Source of the DNA: a virus
Lineage: Duplodnaviria > Heunggongvirae > Uroviricota > Caudoviricetes
Length of the DNA: 12,244 nucleotides
Virus record (IMG/VR): IMGVR_UViG_2681813321_000010
Direction: 5' to 3' (one strand)
The translations under genes and the position numbers were made by a program. Positions 1-12,034 of the stretch are shown piece by piece. Each line of letters begins with the position of its first letter. The first letter of the stretch is position 1. A model generated the notes under the pieces. The model had not been told where the DNA came from. It ran no database searches and saw only the letters and a list, made by a program, of their open reading frames with translations.

Positions 1-140
1 TGCCTGGTGCCTCCAGGTGACGTTAACCAGTTAACAATTAACGCCGGATACAGAGAATCCACCCATAACACTGTTTTTGGTTTTAACTGTTCCGCGTGCG
101 CTCAGCCGCATTCACCGCATCACAAAATTCACTTTAAAAA

Positions 141-193
141 CGGCGGCAGAGCAGTCACGGAGTAAAACTGATACCGCCAAACGTCACCAGAAA
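141..193 (-). ncRNA. dicF: DicF sRNA (ftsZ-targeting antisense sRNA), copy 1
   Basis: The reverse complement of 141-193 reads tttctggtgacgtttggcggtatcagttttactccgtgactgctctgccgccg. I recognise this as the 53-nt DicF of E. coli Qin. A T-run on the minus strand (136-140) follows it. Its position downstream of ydfC matches K-12 synteny. Confidence 0.85.
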
Positions 194-533
194 ATTGATA
201 ACAGAGGGCGTTGCAGCGGGGTTGTCGCTTAAGCGTATGGTCAACCTGACAACCCGGTGTCCTCAACGGGGAAGGAATAACCCCGCCATACTTACCGCCG
301 CGCCATTTCGCGGAGTGCCACAACCGGAAGCGCACGGTCGACGAAAATTTAACGACAGGCTATCTATGAACCAGCTACCTCGCCGTGCGCTTTCGCGTTA
401 TGGTCTGACTTTTCATGGAAATATCCTTTCAGTAAACTGTCAGTGCCGGATGCTCACCCATGTCCGGCGCACGCACTCCACCTCACCCGTGGAGAACTCC
501 TTAATTACCAACCTTAGCTTCGTTGGTTAGCTA
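194..533 (-). other. Untranslated ydfC-dicF spacer of the polycistronic precursor transcript (DicF is processed out of it)
   Basis: It lies between the ydfC stop and the DicF 5' end on the transcribed strand. The only ORFs are R/W/C-rich and overlap dicF. In K-12, DicF is released from the ydfABC-dicF-dicB transcript by RNase E/III processing (recalled knowledge). Confidence 0.5.
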
Positions 534-752
534 TTAACGCGGGTATGTAATCATTCTGGCAATGCTTAATGCCGCTGCTTTTTCCAGCCTGGTGATATCC
601 TGCTCCAGAGCGGACAGATTTTCAGCCTGCTTAGCCCTGGCTTCATTGGCCCATTTCAGATCCTGCGCTGCATTAATTTTCTGGCGCATCCACTCATAAA
701 GTTCATCATCGGTATAGTCTGGCGAGATGATGACGGGTTCTCGTTTCTGCAT
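534..752 (-). CDS. ydfC: YdfC-like small prophage protein (72 aa)
   Basis: ORF-track translation MQKREPVIISPDYTDDELYEWMRQKINAAQDLKWANEARAKQ..., recognised as Qin YdfC. A GAGGA SD precedes the ATG on the minus strand. Synteny is ydfA-ydfB-ydfC-dicF. Confidence 0.85.
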   Translation of the reverse strand: MQKREPVIISPDYTDDELYEWMRQKINAAQDLKWANEARAKQAENLSALEQDITRLEKAAALSIARMITYPR

Positions 753-781
753 ACTGATTCCTCGCGGTGCTGCTTCGCTTA

Positions 782-910
782 TCAGCCGTTAGATTTTGCC
801 GAGCTGGAAAGCGCCTGTTTAAACTCACTGAAGCTGAGAGCTTCTTCGCCTTCGGCAAGGCCTTCGAAGTATTCTTCGTAAGCCTTTTCCATGATTGTGT
901 CGAAATCCAT
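782..910 (-). CDS. ydfB: YdfB-like small protein (42 aa); below the ORF-track length cut-off
   Basis: Hand translation of the minus strand from ATG 910-908 gives MDFDTIMEKAYEEYFEGLAEGEEALSFSEFKQALSSSAKSNG, with stop TGA at 784-782. The start lies 1 nt after the ydfA stop. It matches my recollection of Qin YdfB. Confidence 0.8.
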   Translation of the reverse strand: MDFDTIMEKAYEEYFEGLAEGEEALSFSEFKQALSSSAKSNG

Positions 911-911
911 A

Positions 912-1067
912 TCACTCACCTGAGTTTCTTTCCAGCCAGCGACGGGCACCATTTTCGGTTTTAAACGTTTTGCTTCTGGTATACGTCATCGCGGTAAACG
1001 TGCCGTCCTGGTTGGGAAACACGCCGTACACCAGAGATTCGTTGTTGCCAAGATCGATAGTATCCAT
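912..1067 (-). CDS. ydfA: YdfA-like protein (DUF1391 type, 51 aa from the internal Met)
   Basis: MDTIDLGNNESLVYGVFPNQDGTFTAMTYTRSKTFKTENGARRWLERNSGE. A GAGGT SD sits 4 nt upstream of ATG 1067-1065. The ORF-track start at 1121 has no SD, and K-12 YdfA is 51 aa. Confidence 0.8.
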   Translation of the reverse strand: MDTIDLGNNESLVYGVFPNQDGTFTAMTYTRSKTFKTENGARRWLERNSGE

Positions 1068-1144
1068 GCTGACCTCATTTCCCCTTAACGCTGGGGTAGC
1101 GGAACTGTTTGCTGAGAACACCGTGCGGTGTGTTGATGCAAATA

Positions 1145-1199
1145 AGATTAGCCATGGCTAACATATAGGTCAAGTGATTTTGTATGTTATGGCTAACAT
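1145..1199 (-). promoter_or_regulatory. Promoter and operators of the ydfABC-dicF operon, module 1
   Basis: On the minus strand: -35 TTGACC (1173-1168), a 17-nt spacer, then -10 TAATCT (1150-1145). The palindrome TTAGCCATGGCTAA (1148-1161) lies in the spacer/-10. A second imperfect site, TGTATGTTATGGCTAACA (1181-1198), lies upstream of the -35. Confidence 0.55.
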
Positions 1200-1211
1200 G
1201 ATTGATGTGGT

Positions 1212-1242
1212 AAAAGATAACTCATTGATGATGTTATCTTTT
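1212..1242 (-). terminator. Hairpin overlapping the dicA stop codon; possible (bidirectional) intrinsic terminator
   Basis: Perfect 10-bp inverted repeat aaaagataac (1212-1221) / gttatctttt (1233-1242) with an 11-nt loop. T/U-rich ends are present on both strands. Confidence 0.4.
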
Positions 1243-1641
1243 ATTTGTCCGCTGACGGGCTTTTAGTAATTCTTCAAAGAGTTTATTGAAGTTTTTTACT
1301 CGAGCTCGCATTTCGGCGAGCTGGGTATCCTGTTCTGATTCTGGCAGTGCATTAAACAGCTCAAGGAGCTCTAGTTCTTTGGGGGATAAGGCAACTGGCT
1401 TCTCAACAGGTGGTGTTGGTTGCTTGTCTTCATCGCCAAATAGAATCCATGTTGGTGAGCATTGCAATACTTTGCTGAGGGCAAAAAGGTTCTTCCCTGT
1501 AGGTTCACTATCATCCCGTTCCCATTGTGATACAGACACATGGGAGATTTTCAGGGCTTTAGCAAGAGACCTTTGGGTGTGTTTGAGGTTTTTCCGACGA
1601 TACCTAATGCGTTCGCCGATAGTTAAATTTTTTGTTTCCAT
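1234..1641 (-). CDS. dicA: DicA, XRE-family HTH prophage repressor (135 aa)
   Basis: Translation METKNLTIGERIRYRRKNLKHTQRSLAKALKISHVSVSQWER..., recognised as K-12 Qin DicA. It is divergent from dicC across an operator-rich spacer. There is no S24 peptidase domain. No SD precedes the ATG. Confidence 0.9.
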   Translation of the reverse strand: METKNLTIGERIRYRRKNLKHTQRSLAKALKISHVSVSQWERDDSEPTGKNLFALSKVLQCSPTWILFGDEDKQPTPPVEKPVALSPKELELLELFNALPESEQDTQLAEMRARVKNFNKLFEELLKARQRTNKR

Positions 1642-1643
1642 AG

Positions 1644-1709
1644 TTAGCTAATGCTAAATCGTATTGACTATGTTTTTGTTAACATCTATTTTGTTAGTTA
1701 TGACTAACA
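1644..1709. promoter_or_regulatory. dicA/dicC divergent control region, module 1
   Basis: Palindrome TTAGCTAATGCTAA (1644-1657) lies 2 nt from the dicA ATG. The rightward promoter is TTGACT (1664-1669), a 17-nt spacer, then TATTTT (1687-1692). A perfect 18-bp palindrome TGTTAGTTATGACTAACA (1692-1709) lies at or after the -10. Confidence 0.6.
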
Positions 1710-1724
1710 ATAAAGGTGTTTTAA

Positions 1725-1955
1725 ATGCTTAAAACTGACGCTCTTTTGTATTTCGGTTCAAAAACAAAACTTGCACAAGCAGCAGGTATTCGTTTGGCTT
1801 CGCTTTATAGCTGGAAAGGGGATTTAGTTCCCGAAGGTCGCGCGATGCGTCTACAGGAGGCATCTGGCGGGGAGCTTCAGTATGATCCCAAAGTTTATGA
1901 TGAATATCGTAAGACGAAGCGGGCGGGGCGGTTGAACAATGAAAATCACTCCTGA
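1725..1955 (+). CDS. dicC: DicC, Cro-like / YdaS-family HTH regulator (76 aa)
   Basis: Translation MLKTDALLYFGSKTKLAQAAGIRLASLYSWKGDLVPEGRAMRLQEASGGELQYDP..., recognised as K-12 DicC. It occupies the Cro position opposite the repressor. Confidence 0.9.
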   Translation: MLKTDALLYFGSKTKLAQAAGIRLASLYSWKGDLVPEGRAMRLQEASGGELQYDPKVYDEYRKTKRAGRLNNENHS

Positions 1956-2460
1956 ACAGGCTCGTGAGGCTCTGGATGCCTGGATATGTCGACCAGGAAT
2001 GACACAGGAGCAGGCGACGATATTAATCACTGAAGCATTCTGGGCTTTGAAAGAGCGCCCGAACATCGATGTTCAGCGTGTCACAGATGAAGGTGGCGCG
2101 GTTGATCAGCGAGCGCTTGGCGTTAATCGAGTGAAGATATTCGAACGCTGGAAGGCTATCGACACCAGGGATAAGCGTGAAAAGTTCACGGCGCTAGTGC
2201 CTGCGATTATGGAGGCTATCCGGATTAGTGATTTCAGGTTGTATCGTGAGATCAGTGATGGAAAAAGTATTACGTACATGATCGCCGGGTTAAATAAAGA
2301 ATATGGCGATGTGGTGGAATCCGGACTGCTTTTTGCAGATCCTGCCGTTGTAGATCGTGAAACTGACGAACTTATAGAAAAAGCAATTGCTTTCAAGCTT
2401 GCGTATCGACAGCAATACCAACAAAAAGCTGGATGGAATTATGAGTCTTCTTTTTGCTGA
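1939..2460 (+). CDS. YdaT-family (CII-like) early regulator, 173 aa
   Basis: The ORF overlaps the dicC stop by 17 nt. The segment KIFERWKAIDTRDKREKFTALVPAIMEAI resembles the Rac YdaT region as I recall it. Its position after the Cro-like gene equals the CII/YdaT slot of CP-933P/Rac-type prophages. Confidence 0.6.
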   Translation: MKITPEQAREALDAWICRPGMTQEQATILITEAFWALKERPNIDVQRVTDEGGAVDQRALGVNRVKIFERWKAIDTRDKREKFTALVPAIMEAIRISDFRLYREISDGKSITYMIAGLNKEYGDVVESGLLFADPAVVDRETDELIEKAIAFKLAYRQQYQQKAGWNYESSFC

Positions 2461-3406
2461 ACGCCCACTGGTTATAAACACGCAGCTGGCAATGAAAATT
2501 GGCTTAAACGAAGCCATTGTTTTGCAACAACTGCACTACTGGTTGAGAGATACCAACTCCGGCATGGAATGTGATGGTGTTCGCTGGATTTATAACACAA
2601 CGGAACAATGGCTGGAACAGTTCCCATTCTGGTCAGAGTCAACGTTAAAGCGCGCGTTTGCAAGTCTGAAAACGCTGGGGCTTTTGCGTTGTGAAAAGCT
2701 CAATAAATCAAAGCGCGATATGACCAATTTCTACACGATCAACTACGGGAGCGAGCTTTTAGATGGTGGCAAATTGAGCGAATCCATCGGTTTAAAATGC
2801 GCCGCTCCATCAGGTCAAAATGACACGATGGAAGAGGTCAAAATGAAACGCTCCATTGGTTCAAAACGACTCAATGTCATCGGGTCAAAATGGCCTGATG
2901 ATCTTACAGAGAATACAACAGAGATTACTACAGAGAATAAAAAGACTTCTCGTCCGGAAGCTTCGCAACCGGACCCGCAGACGGTTGAACAGGATTTTTT
3001 AACCCGACACCCTGACGCGGTTGTGTTCAGTGCGAAAAAACGCCAGTGGGGCAGCCAGGAAGATTTGGCGTGTGCGCAGTGGATCTGGGGGCGAATCGTG
3101 AGTCTTTACGAGCAGGCCGCCAGCGATGATGGCGAGATTTCGCGACCGAAAGAACCCAACTGGACCGCATGGGCCAACGACGTGCGCACAATGCGGATGC
3201 TGGATGGCAGAACTCACAGACAAATTTGTGAAATGTTTGGTCGGGTGCAGCGGGATCCATTCTGGGTAAAAAATATCATGAGTCCGTCAAAGCTTCGCGA
3301 AAAATGGGATGAACTGGTTATCCGCCTGGGGCGTTCGTCTGTACAGCGTTGTGTGAATCATATTTCTGAGCCGGATACCGAAATTCCGCCGGGCTTCAGG
3401 GGGTAA
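2441..3406 (+). CDS. Replication initiator, lambda O-like (321 aa from ATG 2441; the ORF is open from 2387)
   Basis: The N-terminal region looks like a winged helix (MSLLFAERPLVINTQLAMKIGLNEAIVLQQLHYWL...). An iteron array plus AT-rich tract lies inside the linker-coding part, as in lambda O/ori. The ATG at 2441 overlaps the upstream stop by 20 nt. Confidence 0.7.
   Translation: MSLLFAERPLVINTQLAMKIGLNEAIVLQQLHYWLRDTNSGMECDGVRWIYNTTEQWLEQFPFWSESTLKRAFASLKTLGLLRCEKLNKSKRDMTNFYTINYGSELLDGGKLSESIGLKCAAPSGQNDTMEEVKMKRSIGSKRLNVIGSKWPDDLTENTTEITTENKKTSRPEASQPDPQTVEQDFLTRHPDAVVFSAKKRQWGSQEDLACAQWIWGRIVSLYEQAASDDGEISRPKEPNWTAWANDVRTMRMLDGRTHRQICEMFGRVQRDPFWVKNIMSPSKLREKWDELVIRLGRSSVQRCVNHISEPDTEIPPGFRG
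2783..2945. repeat. Putative ori, module 1: five iterons plus an AT-rich tract inside the O-like gene
   Basis: The core GGT(C/T)(A/T)AAA(A/C)(T/G)G... (ggtttaaaatg, ggtcaaaatg x3, ggttcaaaacg) begins at 2789, 2813, 2836, 2858 and 2883, with 22-25 bp spacing. Several cores are preceded by tccatc/tccatt. The tract atcttacagagaatacaacagagattactacagagaataaaaa follows (2901-2943). Confidence 0.6.
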
Positions 3407-3446
3407 GTGTTAATTTCTGGTCATGAGGTAATTTTCAGGAGGGCTT

Positions 3447-3869
3447 GTGGCAAAAGTTTTTACACAAGAAGAGCGGGAAAAAATTAAAGGGCAGGTTGTT
3501 GAACTCGTACGCCGGAGTGGGCGTGAGACGTTACGGCAACTGGAAGTCAAGACAGGTGCGACAAGATATCTGATGAGCGTTCTCGCAAGAGAGCTGGTTG
3601 CCAGCGGCGATGTATACAACTCTGGTTACGGGTTATTCCCGTCTGAACAGGCGCGTAAGGACTGGCAAAATGCCCGTAAAAAGCTCTCAAGGGCAAAGCT
3701 GAAGGAACCATCTGCGGTTGATCCGGACCTTATCTGGTCATTACCTGACGGAGAAATACGTCGCTACGACAGGCGTCAGAACATAATCTGTCGCGAGTGC
3801 CGGAAGAGTGAAGTTATGCAGCGCATACTAGCATTCTATCAGGGAAATGCTCGATATTTATTGAAGTGA
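3447..3869 (+). CDS. Conserved early-region protein of unknown function (140 aa, GTG start)
   Basis: A CAGGAGGG SD lies 3 nt upstream of GTG 3447. The paralogue in module 2 is highly similar, with mostly conservative changes. I recognise no family. Confidence 0.6.
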   Translation: MAKVFTQEEREKIKGQVVELVRRSGRETLRQLEVKTGATRYLMSVLARELVASGDVYNSGYGLFPSEQARKDWQNARKKLSRAKLKEPSAVDPDLIWSLPDGEIRRYDRRQNIICRECRKSEVMQRILAFYQGNARYLLK

Positions 3870-4121
3870 TGAGATTAAAGTTTATTAGTTCAGATATTGA
3901 TTGGCTCTTTTGTGGAGTAGGGTAGAGTTAGTGTGTTTGTCTGCTTGGTGCCAGCAGCGGATATGTTTAACAACAGAAAGCATTCAGCATGGTTAGTGGA
4001 TTTGCAAAGTGGATTAGGATTTGAGAAACTTTGATGAAGTTGTAAAGCTTGTTTCTATAAAAATAGAAATTTAACTAATAGTTAAACACACCTCCAGCTT
4101 CATTGAAAAGGATTATTAGCT

Positions 4122-4547
4122 ATGATTGATCCACTTATTAGAAACTTACAGAGTGATATTGCACTACTCCAGCTTTATATCGCGCAACGCAAACAGGCAG
4201 GCTTTCATGACATGGAAAGAATAATTGAGTCATTGACCATCTTTATGTTTCGCGCGCTGAAAATGGGTGAACTGGTAAACATGAATCAGATTAAAGTTAA
4301 TTTTCCCGCCATTGATTTAGCTGATAATAAAAACATGATAGCAGTTCAAGTTACTACGAATGCAAGTCCAGCAAAAATTAAAAAAACTATCGAATCTTTT
4401 GAGAAAATAAATGAAATAGGAGAGAGTCTGAAAGATAAATACTCTACTTTATATATTTTTGGTTTTAACTGTTCCGCGTGCGCTCAGCCGCATTCACCGC
4501 ATCACAAAATTCACTTTAAAAACGGCGGCAGAGCAGTCACGGAGTAA
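4122..4547 (+). pseudogene. SMEK-domain protein N-terminal fragment, truncated at the module junction (4455/4456)
   Basis: AT-rich ORF. The motif ...VNFPAIDLADNKNMIAVQVTTNASPAKIKKTIESF... matches the SMEK-domain signature as I recall it (N..AIDL.D...IA.QVT....KI..T...F). After about codon 112 the frame runs into dicF-flanking repeat DNA and stops at 4547, antisense to dicF. Confidence 0.55.
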
Positions 4548-4575
4548 AACTGATACCGCCAAACGTCACCAGAAA
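4523..4575 (-). ncRNA. dicF: DicF sRNA, copy 2 (sequence identical to copy 1)
   Basis: Same 53-nt sequence and T-run as copy 1. It lies inside the perfect repeat. Confidence 0.85.
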
Positions 4576-4915
4576 ATTGATAACAGAGGGCGTTGCAGCG
4601 GGGTTGTCGCTTAAGCGTATGGTCAACCTGACAACCCGGTGTCCTCAACGGGGAAGGAATAACCCCGCCATACTTACCGCCGCGCCATTTCGCGGAGTGC
4701 CACAACCGGAAGCGCACGGTCGACGAAAATTTAACGACAGGCTATCTATGAACCAGCTACCTCGCCGTGCGCTTTCGCGTTATGGTCTGACTTTTCATGG
4801 AAATATCCTTTCAGTAAACTGTCAGTGCCGGATGCTCACCCATGTCCGGCGCACGCACTCCACCTCACCCGTGGAGAACTCCTTAATTACCAACCTTAGC
4901 TTCGTTGGTTAGCTA

Positions 4916-5134
4916 TTAACGCGGGTATGTAATCATTCTGGCAATGCTTAATGCCGCTGCTTTTTCCAGCCTGGTGATATCCTGCTCCAGAGCGGACAGA
5001 TTTTCAGCCTGCTTAGCCCTGGCTTCATTGGCCCATTTCAGATCCTGCGCTGCATTAATTTTCTGGCGCATCCACTCATAAAGTTCATCATCGGTATAGT
5101 CTGGCGAGATGATGACGGGTTCTCGTTTCTGCAT
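4916..5134 (-). CDS. ydfC: YdfC-like protein, copy 2 (identical 72 aa)
   Basis: The ORF-track translation is identical to 534-752. Confidence 0.85.
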   Translation of the reverse strand: MQKREPVIISPDYTDDELYEWMRQKINAAQDLKWANEARAKQAENLSALEQDITRLEKAAALSIARMITYPR

Positions 5135-5163
5135 ACTGATTCCTCGCGGTGCTGCTTCGCTTA

Positions 5164-5292
5164 TCAGCCGTTAGATTTTGCCGAGCTGGAAAGCGCCTGT
5201 TTAAACTCACTGAAGCTGAGAGCTTCTTCGCCTTCGGCAAGGCCTTCGAAGTATTCTTCGTAAGCCTTTTCCATGATTGTGTCGAAATCCAT
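5164..5292 (-). CDS. ydfB: YdfB-like protein, copy 2 (42 aa)
   Basis: Coordinates are copy 1 +4382. The stop tca was verified at 5164-5166. The DNA is identical. Confidence 0.8.
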   Translation of the reverse strand: MDFDTIMEKAYEEYFEGLAEGEEALSFSEFKQALSSSAKSNG

Positions 5293-5293
5293 A

Positions 5294-5449
5294 TCACTCA
5301 CCTGAGTTTCTTTCCAGCCAGCGACGGGCACCATTTTCGGTTTTAAACGTTTTGCTTCTGGTATACGTCATCGCGGTAAACGTGCCGTCCTGGTTGGGAA
5401 ACACGCCGCATACCAGAGATTCGTTGTTGCCAAGATCGATAGTATTCAT
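5294..5449 (-). CDS. ydfA: YdfA-like protein, copy 2 (51 aa; MNTIDLG..., 2 aa differences from copy 1)
   Basis: Internal Met of ORF 5294-5503. It differs from copy 1 at D2N and Y14C. Confidence 0.8.
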   Translation of the reverse strand: MNTIDLGNNESLVCGVFPNQDGTFTAMTYTRSKTFKTENGARRWLERNSGE

Positions 5450-5526
5450 GCTGACCTCATTTCCCCTTAACGCCGGGGTAGCGGAACTGTTTGCTGAGAA
5501 CACCGTGCGGTGTCTTGGTGGAGATT

Positions 5527-5580
5527 AATTTAGAATAACCTAACAAATGTAGCAAGTATTTTTGTTAGATTGGTCTAACA
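5527..5580 (-). promoter_or_regulatory. Promoter and operators of the ydfABC-dicF operon, module 2
   Basis: On the minus strand: -35 TTGCTA (5555-5550), a 17-nt spacer, then -10 TAAATT (5532-5527). TTAGAATAACCTAACA (5530-5545) lies in the spacer/-10. A perfect 18-bp palindrome TGTTAGATTGGTCTAACA (5563-5580) lies upstream of the -35. The architecture matches module 1 but the bases differ. Confidence 0.55.
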
Positions 5581-5616
5581 AAAAGAGTGAGGGAATCTAA
5601 GTATCTGAAAGGAGTG

Positions 5617-6024
5617 TTATTTTATTGATTTGTTTTTACGTGCTTTAAGCATTTCTTCGAAGAGTTTATTGAAATTCTCTACTCTTGCGCGCATTTCAGA
5701 CAGTAAGGCTTCCTGCTCGGAGGAGGGAAGAGCATCGAATAATTCGATCAATTCTTTGTGGCTGGGAGTTAACTCGGTTTCCACATGAAGTTCTTGTGCT
5801 GGCACTGGTGCCTTGTCTTCGTCACCAAACATTAGCCATGTAGGCGAGCACTTCAGCGCATCAGCTAAAGCAAATAACCGCTTCCCGACCGGTTGGGTTT
5901 CGTCTCTTTCCCATTGTGAAATTGTGACGTGAGCTACCCCAGCGAGGCGTGCAGCTTCTCGTTGTGTTAGGCGTAATTCTTTTCGTCGTGCCAGAACTCG
6001 CTGGCCTAGGGTTCTTGTATCCAT
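5617..6024 (-). CDS. DicA-family XRE HTH repressor, second allele (135 aa)
   Basis: Same length and position as DicA. By eye it is roughly half identical: MDTRTLGQRVLARRKELRLTQREAARLAGVAHVTISQWER... versus DicA. The shared blocks are CSPTW..FGDEDK and MRARV.NFNKLFEE.LKAR. Confidence 0.85.
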   Translation of the reverse strand: MDTRTLGQRVLARRKELRLTQREAARLAGVAHVTISQWERDETQPVGKRLFALADALKCSPTWLMFGDEDKAPVPAQELHVETELTPSHKELIELFDALPSSEQEALLSEMRARVENFNKLFEEMLKARKNKSIK

Positions 6025-6026
6025 AG

Positions 6027-6091
6027 TTAGGTAATTCTAATTTTTCTTGACTTAGGTATCCCGCGCACATTACTGTTAGGAATATCTAACA
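6027..6091. promoter_or_regulatory. Repressor/Cro-like divergent control region, module 2
   Basis: TTAGGTAATTCTAA (6027-6040) lies 2 nt from the repressor ATG. The rightward promoter is TTGACT (6047-6052), an 18-nt spacer, then TACTGT (6071-6076). An 18-bp site TGTTAGGAATATCTAACA (6074-6091) overlaps the -10. Confidence 0.55.
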
Positions 6092-6104
6092 AGAGGGGGC
6101 TTTG

Positions 6105-6332
6105 ATGCTTAAAGTTGACGCAATTACTTTTTTTGGCAGCAAAACAAAACTTGCCAATGCCGCAGGAGTGAAACTGGCAAGTGTTGCTGCATGGGGGGAA
6201 CTGGTTCCTGAAGGTCGCGCGATGCGCCTGCAAGAGGCATCCGGCGGGGAACTTCAGTACGACCCCAAAGTTTATGACGAATATCGTAAGGCAAAGCGGG
6301 CGGGGCGGTTGAACAATGAAAATCACCCCTGA
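6105..6332 (+). CDS. DicC/YdaS-family Cro-like regulator, second allele (75 aa from ATG 6105)
   Basis: An AGAGGGGG SD lies 5 nt upstream of ATG 6105; the ORF track starts at TTG 6102. The N-terminal HTH half is diverged from DicC. The C-terminal half (LVPEGRAMRLQEASGGELQYDPKVYDEYRK.KRAGRLNNENH) is nearly identical. Confidence 0.85.
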   Translation: MLKVDAITFFGSKTKLANAAGVKLASVAAWGELVPEGRAMRLQEASGGELQYDPKVYDEYRKAKRAGRLNNENHP

Positions 6333-6837
6333 ACAGGTTTGTGAGGCTCTGGATGCCTGGGTATGCCGACCAGGAATGACACAGGAGCAGGCGACGATAT
6401 TAATCACGGAAGCATTCTGGGCTCTGAAAGAACGCCCGAACATCGATGTTCAACGCGTCACGTTTAATGATGGCGAGGTTGATCAACGGGCGTTGGGCGT
6501 TAACCGGGTGAAGATATTCGAACGCTGGAAAGCTATCGACACCAGGGATAAGCGGGAAAAATTCACGGCGCTGATTCCGGCAATTATGGAGGCTATCCGG
6601 ATCAGCGATTTCAGGTTGTATTGTGAAATTACTGACGGAAAAAGCATTACGTACATGATCGCCGGGTTAAACAAAGAATATGGTGATGTGGTGGAGTCCG
6701 GGCTGCTTTTTGCGGATCCATCTGTTGTGGAACGTGAGACTGACGAGCTTATAGAAAAAGCTATTGCTTTCAAGCATGCGTATCGTCAGCAATACCAACA
6801 AAAAGCTGGATGGAATTATGAGCCTTCTTTTTGCTGA
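6316..6837 (+). CDS. YdaT-family (CII-like) early regulator, copy 2 (173 aa)
   Basis: Paralogue of 1939-2460 with few substitutions. It has the same 17-nt overlap with the upstream gene. Confidence 0.6.
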   Translation: MKITPEQVCEALDAWVCRPGMTQEQATILITEAFWALKERPNIDVQRVTFNDGEVDQRALGVNRVKIFERWKAIDTRDKREKFTALIPAIMEAIRISDFRLYCEITDGKSITYMIAGLNKEYGDVVESGLLFADPSVVERETDELIEKAIAFKHAYRQQYQQKAGWNYEPSFC

Positions 6838-7783
6838 ACGCCCACTGGTTATAAACACACAGCTTGCGATGAAGATTGGCTTAAATGAAGCCATTGTGTT
6901 GCAGCAGTTGCATTACTGGTTGAGAGATACCAGTTCCGGTATGGAATGTGACGGGGTTCGCTGGATTTATAACACAACAGAACAATGGCTGGAACAGTTC
7001 CCGTTCTGGTCAGAGTCAACGTTAAAACGCGCATTTGCAAGTCTGAAAACGCTGGGGCTTTTGCGTTGCGAAAAGCTCAACAAATCAAAGCGTGATATGA
7101 CTAATTTTTACACGATTAATTACGAGAGTGAGCTTTTAGATGGTGGCAAAGTGAGCGAATCCATCAGGTCAAAATGCGCCGCTCCATCGGGTCAAAATGA
7201 CACGATGGAAGAGGTCAAAATGGCACGCTCCATTGGTTCAAAACGACCCAATGTCATCGGGTCAAAATGGCCTGATGATCTTACAGAGAATACAACAGAG
7301 ATTACTACAGAGAATAAAAACACTTCTCGTCCGGAAGCTTCGCAACCGGACCCGCAGACGGCTGAACAGGATTTTTTAACCCGACACCCTGACGCGGTTG
7401 TGTTCAGTGCGAAAAAACGCCAGTGGGGAAGTCAGGAAGATTTGGCGTGCGCACAGTGGATCTGGGGACGAATCGTGAGTCTTTACGAGCAGGCTGCCAG
7501 CGATGATGGCGAGATCACGCGACCGAAAGAACCAAACTGGACCGCATGGGCCAATGACGTGCGCACAATGCGGATGCTGGATGGCAGAAGCCACAGACAA
7601 ATTTGCGAAATGTTTGGTCGGGTACAGCGAGATCCATTCTGGGTAAAAAACATCATGAGCCCGTCAAAGCTTCGCGAAAAATGGGACGACCTGGTCATCC
7701 GCCTGGGGCGTTCACCTGTACAGTGTTGTGTGAATCATATTTCTGAACCGGATACCGAAATTCCGCCTGGTTTCAGGGGATAA
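6818..7783 (+). CDS. Replication initiator, lambda O-like, copy 2 (321 aa)
   Basis: By my count there are 14 aa differences from copy 1 over 321 aa. It is intact and contains the second iteron array. Confidence 0.7.
   Translation: MSLLFAERPLVINTQLAMKIGLNEAIVLQQLHYWLRDTSSGMECDGVRWIYNTTEQWLEQFPFWSESTLKRAFASLKTLGLLRCEKLNKSKRDMTNFYTINYESELLDGGKVSESIRSKCAAPSGQNDTMEEVKMARSIGSKRPNVIGSKWPDDLTENTTEITTENKNTSRPEASQPDPQTAEQDFLTRHPDAVVFSAKKRQWGSQEDLACAQWIWGRIVSLYEQAASDDGEITRPKEPNWTAWANDVRTMRMLDGRSHRQICEMFGRVQRDPFWVKNIMSPSKLREKWDDLVIRLGRSPVQCCVNHISEPDTEIPPGFRG
7160..7322. repeat. Putative ori, module 2: five iterons plus an AT-rich tract
   Basis: ggtcaaaatg cores start near 7167, 7190, 7213 and 7260, with ggttcaaaacg at 7235. 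The same acagagaatacaacagagattactacagagaataaaaa tract follows. Confidence 0.6.
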
Positions 7784-7823
7784 GTGGTGATTTTAGGGCA
7801 TAAAGTAATGTTCAGGAGGACTT

Positions 7824-8231
7824 ATGGCAAAAGTATTTACACAGGAAGAGCGGGAAAAAATTAAAGGACAGGTGGTGGAACTCGTGCGCCAGAGCGGTCG
7901 TGAGACGTTACGGCAACTGGAAGCTAAAACAGGTGCGACAAGATATCTGATGAGCGTTCTTGCCAGAGAGCTGGTTGCCAGTGGTGATGTATATCACTCT
8001 GGCTATGGGGTGTTCCCGTCAGAACGGGCTCGTAAGGACTGGCAAAACGCCCGCAAAAAACTCTCGAGGGCAAAGGTGAAGAAACCTGTTGTGGTTGATC
8101 CGGGCCTTATCTGGACATTACCCGACGGAGAAATACGCCGCTACGACAGGCGTATGAACATAATCTGTCGCGAGTGCCGGAAGAGCGAAGTTATGCAGCG
8201 TGTATTGGCGTTCTATCAGGGATATGCCTAG
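7824..8231 (+). CDS. Conserved early-region protein of unknown function, copy 2 (135 aa, ATG start)
   Basis: A CAGGAGGA SD is present. It is the paralogue of 3447-3869 and differs mainly at the extreme C-terminus. Confidence 0.6.
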   Translation: MAKVFTQEEREKIKGQVVELVRQSGRETLRQLEAKTGATRYLMSVLARELVASGDVYHSGYGVFPSERARKDWQNARKKLSRAKVKKPVVVDPGLIWTLPDGEIRRYDRRMNIICRECRKSEVMQRVLAFYQGYA

Positions 8232-8599
8232 AATTGTCACAGGTAATGAAATTAAAGAGTATTGGTTCGGATATGAATTGACATTTTCGCGGCACAGAGC
8301 TAAAAATAGCCTACTTGTTGGTTTTGTGTGAAAAGCAGACATTTTGAGGCTCAGGATTTGTTATCAAATAAGACCAATACTTATCTATATTAATACACAT
8401 TAAATACTGTGCAATACATTATTGCATTTTATTAGATAAGCGATATTTAGGGAAAAGAAAAGTCATAGAAAACAGGCCGCTATTTGTTGTTGGATTTTAT
8501 AGGCTATATCTAGATTATCTTGCCACTGCGGTCTCTGTTTACCTAACAGCTTGGGCTTCTTTGCATGCAAGTTTGTAATAACAAGAGTAATCAAACGGA

Positions 8600-9631
8600 A
8601 TGTCTATTAATCCTAAACTTAAGCGTATCGCGCGACGCTATCCAGCGTTATTCCAATATGAGTCCCCCTATATGGCAAGAAAATTAATAATATTCGGCAA
8701 CGGTCTCGGTATGGCTTTAGATCCTGCTCACTTCTCCTTAGACAGAGCGTTGGAAGAAATTTGGCATCGCCCCAATTTTTTAAAAGATATCCACAAGCAA
8801 CTTATCGAGCGTTGTCTTCAGCGGCAAGGTCCACCAGAAGGAGAACATGAGTTGGATACCCTTCACCAGGCTGTCACATATTGTAAAGCTCTTGCTCAAA
8901 TTGGAGAGGGGAACGTGCATTGGCTTACTGAAGATGGACTAAACTTCCCCAAAATTACCGCCACTTATATTCACAAAGTTGCAACCAGGTTGCATAATTA
9001 CGATAAAGGTTTGCCACAAAGATTCGAAAATGCGCTTGTGGAGTTTGTAAAGAACACACACTCACATATCGCGACATTAAACTATGACAAATTATTATAC
9101 AATTCATTCATAGATAATGATATATTCAACGGGTATGATGGGGTTTTAGTTGATGGGATGCTAAGCCACGGATTTTCCTCTGCAGCGCTCGAACGGAAAT
9201 ACAATCGTAGGTTTGGTTATTATTTGCACTTGCATGGTTCACCACTATTTATTAATCAGCATGAAAATGTTTTAAAACTTTCACGCTCACAACTTACTCT
9301 TGACATAGATGAACCTAGTGAGCATATAGTGTTAACTCATATAAAAAGAAAACCGTCAGTTATAGCAGCATCTAATGTTCTTTCTACGTACTGGGATTAT
9401 TTGCAGTTTGCATTATTTGAATCAGAAGAAATAATATTGTTTGGTTACTCTGGTCTCGATATTCACCTTAACCTGCTTATTCGACCTTACCTAACCTCTA
9501 AGCCTTTAAGAGTAATTGAGTGGAGCGGTGCTGGTGAACAAAACGCTCGTGAGATATATTGGAAAAACCAGTTGAGACGGGAAGTTACTGTAATTAGGTT
9601 GGATAACATCACTGATTTTATTGATTGGTAG
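8600..9631 (+). CDS. Stand-alone SIR2-like (DHS-like NAD-binding fold, SIR2_2-type) protein, 343 aa; candidate defence NADase
   Basis: Four motifs occur in the order typical of prokaryotic SIR2_2 proteins. These are LIIFGNGLG (aa 29-37, cf. GAGxS), IATLNYDKLL (aa 157-166, cf. TTNYD), YLHLHGSP (aa 208-215, cf. xHLHG) and IILFGYSGLD (aa 278-287, cf. GYSxxD). The gene and its 370-bp upstream region are visibly AT-rich relative to the flanks. Confidence 0.6.
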   Translation: MSINPKLKRIARRYPALFQYESPYMARKLIIFGNGLGMALDPAHFSLDRALEEIWHRPNFLKDIHKQLIERCLQRQGPPEGEHELDTLHQAVTYCKALAQIGEGNVHWLTEDGLNFPKITATYIHKVATRLHNYDKGLPQRFENALVEFVKNTHSHIATLNYDKLLYNSFIDNDIFNGYDGVLVDGMLSHGFSSAALERKYNRRFGYYLHLHGSPLFINQHENVLKLSRSQLTLDIDEPSEHIVLTHIKRKPSVIAASNVLSTYWDYLQFALFESEEIILFGYSGLDIHLNLLIRPYLTSKPLRVIEWSGAGEQNAREIYWKNQLRREVTVIRLDNITDFIDW

Positions 9632-9701
9632 CGCAATGCGAAGTTAAAGAGGCAGCCTCATATTTATCAGAGCTGGTGTACGTCCAATACAGGAGGTTAT
9701 C

Positions 9702-9791
9702 GTGCTGGTTCTCAAATGCGCGCTGGCTATTGCGGCTGTAGTGGCAATTTATTGTCTTGCTATTGTTCTTATGGATCGCCTTTCTGATTGA
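9702..9791 (+). CDS. Candidate 29-aa hydrophobic peptide (VLVLKCALAIAAVVAIYCLAIVLMDRLSD)
   Basis: A perfect AGGAGG SD (9691-9696) lies 5 nt upstream of GTG 9702. The peptide has a single predicted TM-like helix plus a charged tail. No terminator is visible between it and the SIR2-like gene. Confidence 0.4.
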   Translation: MLVLKCALAIAAVVAIYCLAIVLMDRLSD

Positions 9792-9887
9792 TTTTATATT
9801 GGCGAGGTGACGGGAGTTAAGTAGAATTGCTGCGGGTGCTTGAGGCTGTCTGCCTCGGGCATGCCACCGTAAGGCAGACAGAGAAAA

Positions 9888-9955
9888 GCCCCAGTTAACA
9901 TTACGCGTCCTGCAAGACGCTTAACATTAATCTGAGGCCCAATCTATGCTTCACA
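9888..9955 (-). ncRNA. sok: Sok-like antisense RNA (approximate ends)
   Basis: On the minus strand: promoter TTGCCT (9989-9984), a 17-nt spacer, then TAACCT (9966-9961). The transcript would be antisense to the mok start and leader. It contains the hairpin gcgtc/gacgc (9905-9920) and then a cttttctc tail. Confidence 0.4.
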
Positions 9956-10158
9956 AACGTAGGTTAGCCTCTTACGCGCCGAAAGGCAAGGAGAAGCAGG
10001 CTATGAAGCAGCAAAAGGCGATGTTAATCGCCCTGATCGTCATCTGTTTAACCGTCATAGTGACGGCACTGGTAACGAGGAAAGACCTCTGCGAGGTACG
10101 AATCCGAACCGGCCAGACGGAGGTCGCTGTCTTCACAGCTTACGAACCTGAGGAGTAA
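9946..10158 (+). CDS. mok: Mok-like regulatory reading frame (70 aa, in-frame N-terminal extension of Hok)
   Basis: ORF MLHKRRLASYAPKGKEKQA followed by Hok. The arrangement resembles chromosomal mokC/hokC-type loci. Confidence 0.6.
   Translation: MLHKRRLASYAPKGKEKQAMKQQKAMLIALIVICLTVIVTALVTRKDLCEVRIRTGQTEVAVFTAYEPEE
10003..10158 (+). CDS. hokD: Hok-family type I toxin, HokD/RelF-like (51 aa)
   Basis: MKQQKAMLIALIVICLTVIVTALVTRKDLCEVRIRTGQTEVAVFTAYEPEE, recognised as K-12 HokD. A GGAG SD lies inside mok. Confidence 0.9.
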   Translation: MKQQKAMLIALIVICLTVIVTALVTRKDLCEVRIRTGQTEVAVFTAYEPEE

Positions 10159-10226
10159 GAGACCAGGCGGGGGAGAAATCCCTCGCCACCGCTGATGTGT
10201 CAGGCATCCTCAACGCACCCGCACTT

Positions 10227-10258
10227 AACCCGCTTCGGCGGGTTTTTGTTTTTATTTT
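10227..10258 (+). terminator. Rho-independent terminator of the hok mRNA
   Basis: Stem (aa)cccgc / gcggg(tt) with loop ttcg (10229-10242), followed by tttttgtttttatttt. Confidence 0.8.
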
Positions 10259-10374
10259 CAACGCATTTGAAGTTCTGGACGGTGTCGGAATAGAATCAAA
10301 AATACTTAAGTAGCGCGCAGGGATAAGAGGGATGGTCCCTTAAAGGGGAGAGCTAATTATCCGGAAGGATTCTG

Positions 10375-10626
10375 ATGATGAACATCGAAGAACTGCGTAA
10401 AATTTTTTGTGAAGATGGCCTCTATGCTGTGTGCGTTGAAAATGGAAATATTGTTAGTCATTACCGCATTGTGTGTTTGCGAAAGAATGGGGCTGCGTTA
10501 ATTAATTTTGTGGATGGTCGAGTGACAGACGGATTTATCTTGCGCGAAGGTGAGTTTGTCACTTCATTACAGGCACTGAAAGAGATCGGAATAAAAGCTG
10601 GCTTTTCTGCTTTTTCAGAAGAATAA
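10375..10626 (+). CDS. rem: Rem-like prophage protein (83 aa)
   Basis: MMNIEELRKIFCEDGLYAVCVENGN..., recognised as Qin Rem. A GGAAGGA SD is present. It lies next to hokD, as in K-12. Confidence 0.8.
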   Translation: MMNIEELRKIFCEDGLYAVCVENGNIVSHYRIVCLRKNGAALINFVDGRVTDGFILREGEFVTSLQALKEIGIKAGFSAFSEE

Positions 10627-10692
10627 ACTCATCTACAATCTTGCGCGGGGCTGAACTCCCGCTGAGTAACACCGTGCCGCCGGAGGAAACCG

Positions 10693-10971
10693 ATGGCACG
10701 CAACGCAAAATATTACAATCATGATAATTCGACCGTTCTTGCCCACACGCACGAGCGGTATTCTCACGCATTTAAGTCAGACTGGTACCAGCATCCCCCA
10801 TGCACTGAAGAACAGGCCGAATGGCTCATTCAGTGTTACCGCAGGCGCGGATGCGAGGTTAAAAAAGCCCTTAGCCTCGACTACCGTCACTGGATAATCT
10901 CCGTCGGGCTTCCTTACTCCGAACGCCCACCGCGTCTGTCCCGCACATTCCAGCAACGCATCTGGAGGTAA
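10693..10971 (+). CDS. Hypothetical prophage protein (92 aa)
   Basis: A GGAGGA SD lies 6 nt upstream. The stop is 1 nt before the ydfU GTG start, suggesting translational coupling. I recognise no family. Confidence 0.55.
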   Translation: MARNAKYYNHDNSTVLAHTHERYSHAFKSDWYQHPPCTEEQAEWLIQCYRRRGCEVKKALSLDYRHWIISVGLPYSERPPRLSRTFQQRIWR

Positions 10972-10972
10972 C

Positions 10973-12022: not shown

Positions 12023-12034
12023 AAGAGGTTACTG

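What the first reader, a model, noticed from the sequence alone, without database searches (positions are those of the whole stretch)
74..8290. Tandem, mosaic duplication of an entire prophage immunity-plus-replication module, with both copies intact
Two 4.4-kb units lie head to tail. Each carries dicF, ydfC, ydfB, ydfA, a repressor, a Cro-like gene, a YdaT-like gene, an O-like gene with ori, and a 135-140 aa protein. Identity comes in three blocks. The first ~940 bp (74 to ~1015) appear 100% identical, with a few SNPs up to 1130. The immunity core is strongly diverged. The replication genes are roughly 90% identical. In the first ~300 nt of the O-like gene I counted about 28 differences, of which only 2 change the amino acid; over the whole protein 14 of 321 residues differ. 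Both copies therefore evolved under purifying selection as functional orthologues in different phages. They were probably joined later by recombination, rather than arising by in-situ duplication and decay. A prophage carrying two complete immunity/replication sets is unusual. It could give dual superinfection immunity, two origins, or a regulatory hierarchy between the two switches.
Basis: seen in the sequence. Interest (0 to 1): 0.7.

Follow-up and report, generated by a model that had tools for sequence, protein, structure and literature searches.

The report
Two prophage control modules joined head-to-tail
Two different versions of a prophage's "on/off switch plus DNA-replication" block sit head to tail in this E. 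coli contig, built from two prophages that live separately in known sister strains; the joints look like real recombination, but the window is a short-read contig that runs through a repeat twice, so the side-by-side arrangement still needs long-read or PCR proof.

Summary
Unit 1 (74-~3897) and unit 2 (4456-~8274) are head-to-tail: 953 bp at 100%, a diverged switch, then 2.08 kb at 90%. Both units are complete.

The pieces come from two prophages that co-reside, 1.2 Mb apart, in E. coli O111:H2 12A and FDAARGOS_1059. Window 1-1026 and 4456-12244 equal prophage B (at yccA). Window 1027-4466 equals prophage A (Qin-type DicA/DicC). There are two joints:
- a B-to-A switch inside 1003-1026 (ydfA);
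- an 11-nt microhomology, TTTTTGGTTTT, that truncates A's SMEK gene and joins it to the dicB-dicF spacer.

No other public sequence searched carries the second joint.

The window ends fall exactly on k=77 de Bruijn vertices defined by A/B SNPs, so it is almost certainly a whole SPAdes-type short-read contig. The 953-bp repeat is its only repeated 77-mer stretch. The contig is therefore one pass round a simple graph loop. Both joints need read support, but the 100% identity is automatic. An integrated tandem and a free 4,382-bp lambda-dv-like circle plus intact B have identical k-mer content.

Both switches share TTAG-N6-CTAA operators, so "dual immunity" is unproven. My estimates: tandem as drawn about 0.5; interest about 0.35.

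The parts
1..73 (.). dicB-dicF spacer, the entrance to the repeat. Window base 1 is the first base after two A/B SNPs (B5998, B6000).
   Evidence: position 1 = L001 6001; A and B are identical over 1-116
74..1026 (.). Repeat R, copy 1 (B-type dicF-ydfC-ydfB-ydfA 3' part), 953 nt
   Evidence: all 26 A/B-diagnostic sites at 117-1002 are B-type; the only repeated 77-mers in the window
74..84 (+). TTTTTGGTTTT, the 11-mer in the dicB-dicF spacer (partner of the junction microhomology)
   Evidence: 2 occurrences in the window, 0.04 expected
141..192 (-). DicF sRNA, copy 1
   Evidence: Rfam RF00039, 72.5 bits
534..752 (-). ydfC, copy 1
782..910 (-). ydfB, copy 1
   Evidence: PGAP annotation of the identical parent
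912..1067 (-). ydfA (DUF1391), B/A hybrid allele
   Evidence: Pfam PF07151; markers
1003..1026 (.). Interval containing the B-to-A switch (junction RX). 77-mers starting at 951-1002 are absent from both parents.
   Evidence: a third prophage type cannot bridge at k=77
1148..1161 (.). Operator-like TTAG-N6-CTAA site in the unit 1 dicBp (PL-like) region
1234..1641 (-). DicA repressor (135 aa, HTH_3, no peptidase domain), unit 1, A-type
1644..1657 (.). Operator-like site next to the dicA start codon
1691..1710 (.). DicA operator Oc, identical to the published K-12 sequence
   Evidence: and PMC3441716
1725..1955 (+). dicC (Cro-like), unit 1
1939..2460 (+). YdaT / CII-like regulator, unit 1
2441..3406 (+). 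O-like replication initiator (321 aa), unit 1
   Evidence: phrog_391, E=4.5e-95
2785..2941 (.). ori-like array, unit 1: 5 x 23-bp iterons (2785-2900) plus A-rich 12-mers (2906-2941)
3447..3869 (+). DUF977 / Ren-like protein (140 aa), unit 1
4122..4547 (+). Truncated SMEK gene: 115 native residues plus a 26-residue read-through tail (junction-specific fusion ORF)
   Evidence: product not on record
4456..4466 (+). Novel junction J. The 11-nt microhomology TTTTTGGTTTT is shared by A's SMEK gene and the dicB-dicF spacer.
   Evidence: three-way alignment; P(>=11 nt at a random join)=6.5e-6; 77-mers starting at 4391-4455 are non-parental
4456..5408 (.). Repeat R, copy 2 (identical to copy 1)
4523..4574 (-). 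DicF sRNA, copy 2 (no dicB downstream of it)
4916..5134 (-). ydfC, copy 2
5164..5292 (-). ydfB, copy 2
   Evidence: offset 4382
5294..5449 (-). ydfA, copy 2 (B-type)
5530..5578 (.). Two TTAG-N6-CTAA sites in the unit 2 PL-like region
5617..6024 (-). Repressor B (135 aa, HTH_3; 76/133 identical to DicA)
6027..6092 (.). Unit 2 operators: 6027-6040, and the Oc counterpart CTGTTAGGAATATCTAACAA at 6073-6092
6105..6332 (+). Cro-like gene, unit 2
6316..6837 (+). YdaT / CII-like regulator, unit 2
6818..7783 (+). O-like initiator, unit 2
7162..7318 (.). ori-like array, unit 2: iterons (7162-7277) plus A-rich repeats
7824..8231 (+). DUF977 protein (135 aa), unit 2
10375..10626 (+). rem, the only antirepressor gene in the window (context for how the switches would be released)
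   Evidence: PGAP name; function from PMC10448788
12168..12244 (.). Terminal 77-mer. It begins one base after the last A/B SNP (12167), the signature of a k=77 graph vertex.

Best explanation
The window is a whole short-read (k=77, SPAdes-type) contig from an E. coli of the O111:H2 12A / FDAARGOS_1059 lineage. It records a real 4,382-bp recombinant unit made from two co-resident lambdoid prophages. Most simply, that unit is inserted head-to-tail into prophage B (at yccA), so that a Qin-type DicA/DicC immunity-replication module from prophage A lies directly upstream of B's own module.

Two joints define the unit. One is a homologous exchange within 1003-1026 of the shared ydfA block. The other is a short-homology illegitimate exchange at TTTTTGGTTTT, which cuts A's SMEK gene after codon 115 and fuses it to the spacer upstream of dicF. 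The structure is topologically a circle (B 74-1026 plus A 1027-4455) integrated by homologous recombination into repeat R of prophage B.

How it would work (inferred):
- Each unit is a complete switch: a 135-aa repressor without a cleavage domain, TTAG-N6-CTAA operators at PL- and PR-like promoters, Cro-like and CII-like regulators, and an O-type initiator with iterons inside its gene.
- In the tandem, the leftward operon that reaches dicB and the recombination, excision and integration genes would be controlled by the unit 1 (DicA) operators.
- The rightward operon that reaches SIR2, hok/sok, rem, Q and the late genes would be controlled by unit 2.
- Unit 2's leftward transcript would give YdfABC and DicF but no DicB, and would converge on unit 1's rightward transcript.
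- Because both repressors share operator half-sites and a near-identical recognition helix, cross-repression is likely.
- The two origins appear to have one specificity.
- The 953-1,062-bp direct repeat makes the structure unstable. One RecA-type crossover restores plain prophage B and releases the circle.
For: Shown:
- Architecture and boundaries.
- Parentage. Window 4456-12244 is 7,789/7,789 identical to 12A prophage B. Window 1-1026 is identical to B, with all 26 diagnostic sites (117-1002) B-type. Window 1027-4466 is identical to FDAARGOS_1059 prophage A, and has 1 difference from 12A prophage A, at 1710.
- The junction alignment shows A identity up to 4466 and B identity from 4456.
- The 11-mer occurs only at 74 and 4456 in the window (0.04 expected).
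- P(>=11-nt microhomology at a random A x B join) = 6.5e-6, and only 3 shared 11-mers exist in the relevant space.
- Contig-end signatures: start = SNP+1, end = last SNP+77.
- At k=77 the only internal repeat is R. The only non-parental 77-mers are those starting at 951-1002 and at 4391-4455. A de Bruijn path cannot invent these, so both joints must be present in reads. The graph is a simple loop whose unique traversal with single-copy X and Y is the contig as written.
- A third prophage type that carries the same ydfA allele overlaps B-type sequence by only 69 nt, so it cannot bridge at k=77.

Module function:
- Pfam, PHROG and Rfam assignments; iterons.
- All 7 TTAG-N6-CTAA sites lie in the four control regions (0.14 expected).
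- Window 1691-1710 equals the published DicA operator Oc (PMC3441716).
- DicA-type repressors are released by the antirepressor Rem (PMC10448788).

Literature:
- E. coli illegitimate recombination uses microhomologies of about 9 nt (PMC3375238).
- Phage and prophage exchange at diverged homology is frequent (PMC3945230).
Against: - No reads, coverage or long-range links are available.
- R (953 nt) exceeds a typical short-read insert. What lies beyond each R copy was decided by the assembler's loop resolution. A free circle plus intact B has identical k-mer content.
- The junction is found nowhere else: 5,426 complete E. coli genomes, including the three closest relatives, phage records, three contig collections and the protein-position index.
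- There is not one private mutation, so the event is very recent, present only in a subpopulation, or artefactual.
- Formation in prophage B needs two B-derived strands and one A-derived strand. It cannot be a single reciprocal exchange.
- If the source also held a standard prophage A (as 12A does), unit 1's interior would be a two-copy 3.4-kb repeat and the contig should have broken there. So either the source lacks a standard A or the path is less secure than it looks.
- No RecET or Red-type recombinase was identified in prophage B. Its 'exonuclease' has only an Rv2179c-like domain.
Confidence: 0.5

Rival explanations
1. The recombinant unit is real, but the contig mis-states its context. 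It exists as a free 4,382-bp circle (B 74-1026 plus A 1027-4455). The circle carries ori, the O-like initiator, cro-like, CII-like and repressor genes, so it resembles lambda-dv. Alternatively the unit is a tandem duplication at another locus. In either case prophage B is intact and separate. The assembler simply walked the loop once and left through B.
For: - Identical k-mer content and graph topology to the tandem.
- R is longer than a usual insert.
- A double exchange between A and B (homologous at 1003-1026, illegitimate at the 11-mer), with the crossover order opposite on the two molecules, yields exactly this circle (inference).
- The unit contains the replication and regulation gene set of lambda-dv plasmids (lambda-dv background in PMC3349717).
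- Circle and tandem interconvert by one crossover in R.
Against: - No P-like helicase loader gene lies in the unit, and autonomous replication is untested.
- A coverage-guided loop resolver would be expected to write several turns for a multicopy circle (from my own knowledge of the assembler, not tested here), but only one is written.
- A circle derived from prophage A alone is excluded. Junction 77-mers carry B-type markers at 4499 and 4523.
- Natural lambda-dv-like elements have not been reported, as far as I know.
Confidence: 0.25
2. Artefact. One or both novel joints come from chimeric library molecules, template switching in vitro or an assembly error, and the strain simply carries prophages A and B separately, as in 12A.
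For: - Both parents co-reside in the nearest complete genomes.
- There are no private mutations, and the junction is unique in all databases searched.
- Template-switch chimeras can use microhomology.
Against: - A k=77 graph cannot join sequences that share 11 nt or 24 nt, so the joints need real reads.
- Singleton chimeric edges are normally removed by assemblers.
- Two independent chimeras would have to close one coherent 4,382-bp cycle.
- A random ligation would show >=11 nt of microhomology with P about 6.5e-6.
Confidence: 0.15
3. In-situ tandem duplication of one module, followed by divergence or decay of the copies.
For: The head-to-tail layout, and the microhomology at the joint, are typical of spontaneous duplications.
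Against: - The interiors differ by 10% to over 40%, while the flanking block is identical.
- dS is 0.29-0.48 or saturated, with dN/dS of about 0.1.
- Each interior is 100% identical to a separate prophage in sister strains.
Confidence: 0.01

Closest known systems
Qin cryptic prophage dicA-dicC / dicBF locus of E. coli K-12 (and functional relatives such as phage mEp460_ev081)
   Same: - Unit 1 is this locus: DicA (135 aa, no cleavage domain), divergent DicC, and ydfA-ydfB-ydfC-dicF leftward.
- Its operator Oc is identical to the published 20-mer.
- Unit 2 has the same layout, and its operator half-sites sit at the same positions.
- A rem antirepressor gene lies downstream.
   Different: - Two such loci lie head to tail, and the second has a 57%-identical repressor.
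- The second dicF has no dicB behind it.
- There is only one rem for two repressors.
Spontaneous tandem duplications in phage lambda, and short-homology illegitimate recombination in E. coli (lambda bio / Spi- assay)
   Same: - The novel joint lies at a short direct repeat (11 nt here; about 9 nt is typical, PMC3375238).
- The product is head-to-tail.
- It is expected to be lost by homologous recombination between the repeats. The classical lambda duplication work is cited from my own knowledge.
   Different: The two copies are not sisters. The interior of copy 1 comes from another prophage, so a second, homologous exchange is needed.
Lambdoid mosaicism by exchange with resident or defective prophages (De Paepe et al. 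2014, PMC3945230)
   Same: - Exchange occurs within a diverged (97%) homologous block between co-resident prophages.
- Prophage A has a frameshifted integrase, so it is probably defective.
- Natural reassortants of these modules exist, for example DicA/DicC with SIR2 in an Stx2e prophage.
   Different: That work found homologous exchange to dominate and illegitimate events to be rare. Here one joint is illegitimate, and the product keeps both alleles instead of replacing one.
Lambda-dv plasmids
   Same: The 4,382-bp unit contains the repressor, cro-like, CII-like and O-like genes with an internal ori. It closes on itself in the assembly graph.
   Different: - No P-type loader gene is present.
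- It also carries dicF and ydfABC.
- Circularity and autonomous replication are untested.
Tandem polylysogeny (e.g. Stx2 phage plus PPompW tandem prophages, LC567818 and similar records)
   Same: Two lambdoid immunity regions lie close together on one chromosome.
   Different: Those are whole prophages integrated side by side at an att site. Here only a 4.4-kb internal segment is repeated, with no att-type joint.

Membership tests
Qin-type DicA/DicC immunity locus | Short (135-aa) HTH repressor that lacks a LexA/S24 self-cleavage domain | tested here: met
   Both repressors have HTH_3 only and are 135 aa. PGAP names unit 1's parent DicA.
Qin-type DicA/DicC immunity locus | Divergent Cro-like gene, with the Oc operator TTGTTAG-N6-CTAACAA between the two genes | tested here: met
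   Unit 1: P22_Cro hit; Oc is identical to the published 20-mer. Unit 2: CTGTTAGGAATATCTAACAA at the same offset. Binding was not tested.
Qin-type DicA/DicC immunity locus | Leftward ydfABC-dicF(-dicB) operon that carries DicF RNA | tested here: met
   DicF at 72.5 bits, twice. dicB lies just outside the window in the parent for copy 1 and is absent behind copy 2.
Qin-type DicA/DicC immunity locus | Cognate antirepressor Rem | tested here: inconclusive
   There is one gene that PGAP names rem (10375-10626). It has no Pfam model. Which repressor it acts on is unknown.
Lambda-type O/ori replication module | Initiator gene with iterons and an A/T-rich tract inside its coding sequence | tested here: met
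   phrog_391 at E=4.5e-95. Five 23-bp iterons plus A-rich repeats lie in both genes.
Lambda-type O/ori replication module | Separate P-type helicase loader next to O | tested here: not met
   The gene after O is DUF977/Ren-like. The only sign of loader function is DnaD-like similarity within the O-like protein.
Simple tandem duplication by short-homology illegitimate recombination | Novel joint at a short direct repeat present at both ends of the unit | tested here: met
   TTTTTGGTTTT at 74 and 4456.
Simple tandem duplication by short-homology illegitimate recombination | The two copies derive from one progenitor segment | tested here: not met
   The interiors match two different prophages.
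Simple tandem duplication by short-homology illegitimate recombination | Physical continuity of copy 1, joint and copy 2 on one molecule | not testable with these tools
   It needs reads that span the 953-nt repeat. The contig is a loop traversal.
Lambda-dv-like autonomous circle | Circular, self-replicating fragment carrying ori, the initiator and cro-type autoregulation | not testable with these tools
   The gene content is compatible and the graph cycle is compatible. Topology and replication are unknown.
Whole de Bruijn-graph contig containing a resolved loop | Contig ends coincide with k-mer vertices at branch points between co-resident repeats | tested here: met
   The start is the first base after the A/B SNPs. 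The end is the last A/B SNP (12167) + 77 = 12244.
Whole de Bruijn-graph contig containing a resolved loop | The repeated segment is exactly identical and is the only stretch sharing k-mers | tested here: met
   Only 74-1026 / 4456-5408 repeat at k=77. The longest other shared runs are 72 and 66 nt.

The most novel reading that the evidence does not exclude
The 4,382-bp unit is a naturally formed hybrid mini-replicon. It is a lambda-dv-like circle assembled from two co-resident prophages by one homologous and one 11-nt microhomology exchange. It shuttles between a free form and an integrated tandem form in prophage B. That would make it a caught-in-the-act intermediate of immunity/replication module exchange in lambdoid phages. 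Resolution through the 90% block would yield an immunity-swapped phage.
Probability: 0.15. Interest if true: 0.6.

Novelty: new variant of a known kind. Interest (0 to 1): 0.35.

Why it matters
How lambdoid phages swap whole functional modules is still debated: homologous exchange at conserved linkers versus random illegitimate joins followed by selection. If real, this structure is a product with zero mutations since it formed. Both parents are known to the base, one joint of each type is present, and both alleles are still there. Such intermediates are normally erased by later recombination.

It would also be a natural test bed for three questions:
- cross-talk between two DicA-type switches that share operator half-sites;
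- control of the toxic dicBF operon by a foreign repressor;
- whether an O-plus-ori segment of this phage group can replicate on its own.

There is also a practical lesson. A perfect internal repeat in a short-read contig can be a graph loop, and the contig ends can reveal the assembler's k.

Tried and rejected
1. **Other instances of the joint.** None found. I tried an exact look-up of the fusion protein; exact 35-nt junction scans of genome, viral and metagenome contigs; megablast of 3700-4700 against 5,426 complete E. coli genomes; and the phage records.
2. **Tandem modules as a common arrangement.** 0 of 96 related loci (80 viral contigs, the genome-contig loci that carry the module, and the first four fetched E. 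coli loci) have two O-like, YdfC, YdaT or DUF977 genes within the fetched flanks.
3. **The 11-mer as a natural module boundary.** ETEC hits begin at query position 8. Rejected, because dicB is still to the left there and the offset is only a local SNP.
4. **A private operator mutation at 1710 marking post-event evolution.** Rejected. FDAARGOS_1059 prophage A has the same base, and it is the canonical Oc base.
5. **The B-to-A switch as a graph path through a third prophage with the same ydfA allele.** That allele occurs in 71 genomes. Rejected at k=77, because its exact overlap with B-type sequence is 69 nt.
6. **A circle or duplication formed from prophage A alone through its own two 11-mers** (L002 4374 and 8757). 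Rejected as such, because the junction 77-mers carry B-type markers at 4499 and 4523 and copy 1 is B-type up to 1002.
7. **A single reciprocal inversion between the inverted prophages A and B.** This gives a tandem with A-type R in copy 1 and removes the parental B junction. It does not fit without extra conversion events.
8. **A RecET or Red system in prophage B as the agent.** Not supported. The 823-aa 'exonuclease' shows only an Rv2179c-like domain.
9. **In-situ duplication and divergence.** Refuted.

Full report
**1.

Self-comparison gives two head-to-tail units. Positions 74-1026 equal 4456-5408 exactly (953 nt), and five SNPs follow up to 1132. The stretch 1136-1817 is only about 51-68% identical. 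The stretch 1818-3897 matches 6195-8274 at 90.1% over 2,083 columns. Similarity ends at about 3897 / 8274.

Rfam finds DicF twice (141-192 and 4523-4574, minus strand) and sok once.

Each unit has ydfC, ydfB, ydfA, a 135-aa HTH_3 repressor, a P22_Cro-type gene, a YdaT/CII-like gene, a 321-aa O-like initiator (phrog_391, no Pfam family) and a DUF977/Ren-like gene. Both O-like genes contain five 23-bp iterons followed by A-rich repeats (2785-2941; 7162-7318), so 'O with ori' is justified.

The O-like proteins are 307/321 identical. dN/dS is 0.07, 0.10 and 0.12 for the O-like, YdaT and DUF977 pairs. The repressors are 76/133 identical, with saturated dS.

**2. Where the pieces come from**

- Window 4456-12244 is 7,789/7,789 identical to a prophage integrated next to yccA in E. 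coli O111:H2 strain 12A (NZ_CP077479). I call it prophage B.
- The same strain carries a second lambdoid prophage, A, 1.2 Mb away in the opposite orientation. It has DicA/DicC immunity, and downstream of DUF977 it has a 299-aa SMEK-domain gene where B has a SIR2 gene.
- A three-way alignment shows that window 1-1002 carries all 26 B-type diagnostic sites, and that from 1027 on the window is A-type.
- Window 1027-4466 differs from 12A's prophage A at one base (1710). It is identical to prophage A of the sister strain FDAARGOS_1059.

So the window is B | A | B with no private mutation.

**3. The two joints**

- *Joint RX* lies inside 1003-1026 (ydfA), within a 1.06-kb block that is 97% identical between A and B.
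- *Joint J* is illegitimate. A's intact SMEK gene matches the window up to 4466, and B's dicB-dicF spacer matches from 4456. The overlap is TTTTTGGTTTT.
- That 11-mer occurs only at 74 and 4456 in the window (0.04 expected).
- A random A x B join would show at least 11 nt of microhomology with P = 6.5e-6. Only three 11-mers are shared in the relevant space.
- The joint leaves a fusion ORF (4122-4547): 115 SMEK residues plus a 26-residue tail.
- This size of microhomology is typical of RecA-independent illegitimate recombination in E. coli, which uses about 9 nt (PMC3375238). Exchange between diverged prophage sequences is well documented (PMC3945230).

**4. Rarity**

- No complete E. coli genome (0 of 5,426) spans 3700-4700. 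Matches stop at 4466.
- The exact junction is absent from the genome, viral and metagenome contig collections, and no phage record covers it.
- The fusion protein is not on record.
- Among 96 related loci, none has a second module within the fetched flanks.

**5. What kind of sequence the window is**

A and B differ at B5998 and B6000, and the window starts at B6001. At the other end, the last A/B difference is at window-equivalent 12167 and the next is at 12988. The window ends at 12244 = 12167 + 77.

Both ends therefore sit exactly on vertices of a k=77 de Bruijn graph at branch points between the two prophages. From my own knowledge, 77 is the top default k of SPAdes for 150-nt reads. I estimate the joint probability of these coincidences at roughly 1e-4. 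I conclude that the window is a complete short-read contig from a genome that also holds A-type flanks.

At k=77 the only repeated 77-mers in the window are 74-1026 / 4456-5408. The interiors of the two units share none (longest exact runs 72 and 66 nt). The only 77-mers absent from the parental loci are those starting at 951-1002 (RX) and at 4391-4455 (J).

Three things follow.

- Both joints must be present in reads, because a graph path cannot switch haplotype across 24 or 11 shared bases. A third prophage type that carries the same ydfA allele (71 genomes) overlaps B-type sequence by only 69 nt and cannot bridge.
- The local graph is a simple loop: entrance, then R, then either X or Y, with X returning through J to R. 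The contig is one traversal of it. The 100% identity of the two R copies is therefore automatic.
- An integrated tandem, and a free 4,382-bp circle (B 74-1026 plus A 1027-4455) alongside an intact prophage B, have identical k-mer content. R is longer than a usual insert, so the contig cannot tell them apart.

**6. Origin (inferred)**

The unit is topologically a circle integrated by homologous recombination into R of prophage B. A double exchange between A and B produces exactly that circle: homologous at 1003-1026, illegitimate at the 11-mer, with the crossover order opposite on the two molecules. Integration into another copy of B then gives the tandem.

Equivalently, the structure could arise by copy-choice with two template switches. 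In either case it needs two B strands and one A strand, so it is not a single reciprocal event. A circle or duplication from prophage A alone is excluded, because the junction k-mers carry B-type markers at 4499 and 4523. No phage recombinase could be assigned.

**7. How the structure would work (inferred)**

Unit 1 is the Qin-type switch. Window 1691-1710 is the published DicA operator Oc (TTGTTAGTCATAACTAACAA on the other strand; PMC3441716). DicA-type repressors lack a cleavage domain and are released by the antirepressor Rem (PMC10448788).

All seven TTAG-N6-CTAA sites in the window (0.14 expected) lie in the four control regions, at matching offsets from the repressor and cro start codons. 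Unit 2's Oc counterpart is CTGTTAGGAATATCTAACAA. The recognition helices are SHVSVSQWERD and AHVTISQWERD. The two 'diverged' switches therefore probably share operator half-site specificity, so dual heteroimmunity is not established and cross-repression is plausible.

In the tandem:
- the leftward operon that reaches dicB and the recombination, excision and integration genes would be under unit 1 operators;
- the rightward operon that reaches SIR2, hok/sok, rem, Q and the late genes would be under unit 2;
- unit 2's leftward transcript would yield YdfABC and DicF but no DicB, and would collide with unit 1's rightward transcript;
- the iterons and the O N-terminal regions are almost identical, so the two origins are redundant rather than different;
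- the 953-1,062-bp direct repeat predicts frequent loss by one crossover, which would regenerate plain B and release the circle.

**8. Verdict**

The anatomy is confirmed, and the recombinational origin is confirmed with both parents identified. The physical side-by-side arrangement is plausible but unproven. My probability estimates are:

| Reading | Probability |
|---|---|
| Tandem as drawn | about 0.5 |
| Circle or other phasing | about 0.25 |
| Artefactual joints | about 0.15 |
| In-situ duplication and divergence | about 0.01 |

The remainder covers arrangements I have not listed. This is a new variant of known things: Qin-type modules, short-homology duplications, lambdoid mosaicism and lambda-dv. 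It is of moderate interest unless reads or PCR confirm it.

Noticed in passing
window 1148-1161, 1644-1657, 1694-1707, 5530-5543, 5565-5578, 6027-6040, 6076-6089: All seven TTAG-N6-CTAA palindromes in the window (0.14 expected) fall in the PL- and PR-like control regions of the two units, at matching offsets. Two repressors that are only 57% identical seem to share operator half-sites. This suggests an immunity 'family' with possible cross-talk among DicA-type prophages.
   Followed up: partly
window 1710; L002 about 6011: Strain 12A's prophage A has G at the outermost base of the DicA operator Oc. The window, FDAARGOS_1059 and the published K-12 operator have A. Only 21 of 727 genomes match the window's 61-mer (1680-1740) exactly, so this control region is polymorphic.
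   Followed up: partly
window 8672-9631 vs L002 8423-10998: The slot between DUF977 and hokD is a variable cargo site. It holds a SIR2-family gene in B. PADLOC gives only weak hits to pAgo-associated SIR2 and to PDC-S21. In A the slot holds a SMEK-domain gene (N-terminal match to an Aga_REase-PNTD model, 1.4e-20) plus a class I methyltransferase and a hypothetical gene. These are likely anti-phage cargo.
   Followed up: partly
window 9834-10158: A hok/sok-type type I toxin-antitoxin lies here (Rfam sok 116 bits; hokD at 10003-10158), downstream of SIR2. It is present once and is not part of the repeat.
   Followed up: no
L086, L089, L103 (genome contigs): Contigs binned as Bacillota, Veillonella parvula and Collinsella MAGs encode this E. 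coli prophage O-like protein at 94-100% identity. They are almost certainly mis-binned Escherichia prophage contigs.
   Followed up: no
L110 (E. coli O139:H1 W13-16): An Stx2e-converting prophage combines DicA/DicC immunity with the SIR2 cargo gene and the tRNA-Ile/Arg cluster upstream of stx2e. This is a natural reassortant of the A-type switch with B-type downstream cargo.
   Followed up: no
window 2872-2943 = 7249-7320; 2986-3051 = 7363-7428: The longest exact runs shared by the two O-like genes are 72 and 66 nt, just under k=77. This is why the assembler could pass through both units without further branching. At k=55 the graph would be tangled.
   Followed up: yes
L002 14-1064: Prophage A's integrase is annotated as frameshifted in strain 12A, so A is probably a defective prophage that serves as a donor of modules.
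   Followed up: no
L113-L115 about 5956-6108: The exact ydfA haplotype of window 958-1106 also occurs in a third prophage type with a LexA-family (cleavable) repressor, in 71 complete genomes. So ydfA is a recurrent crossover zone between immunity types.
   Followed up: partly
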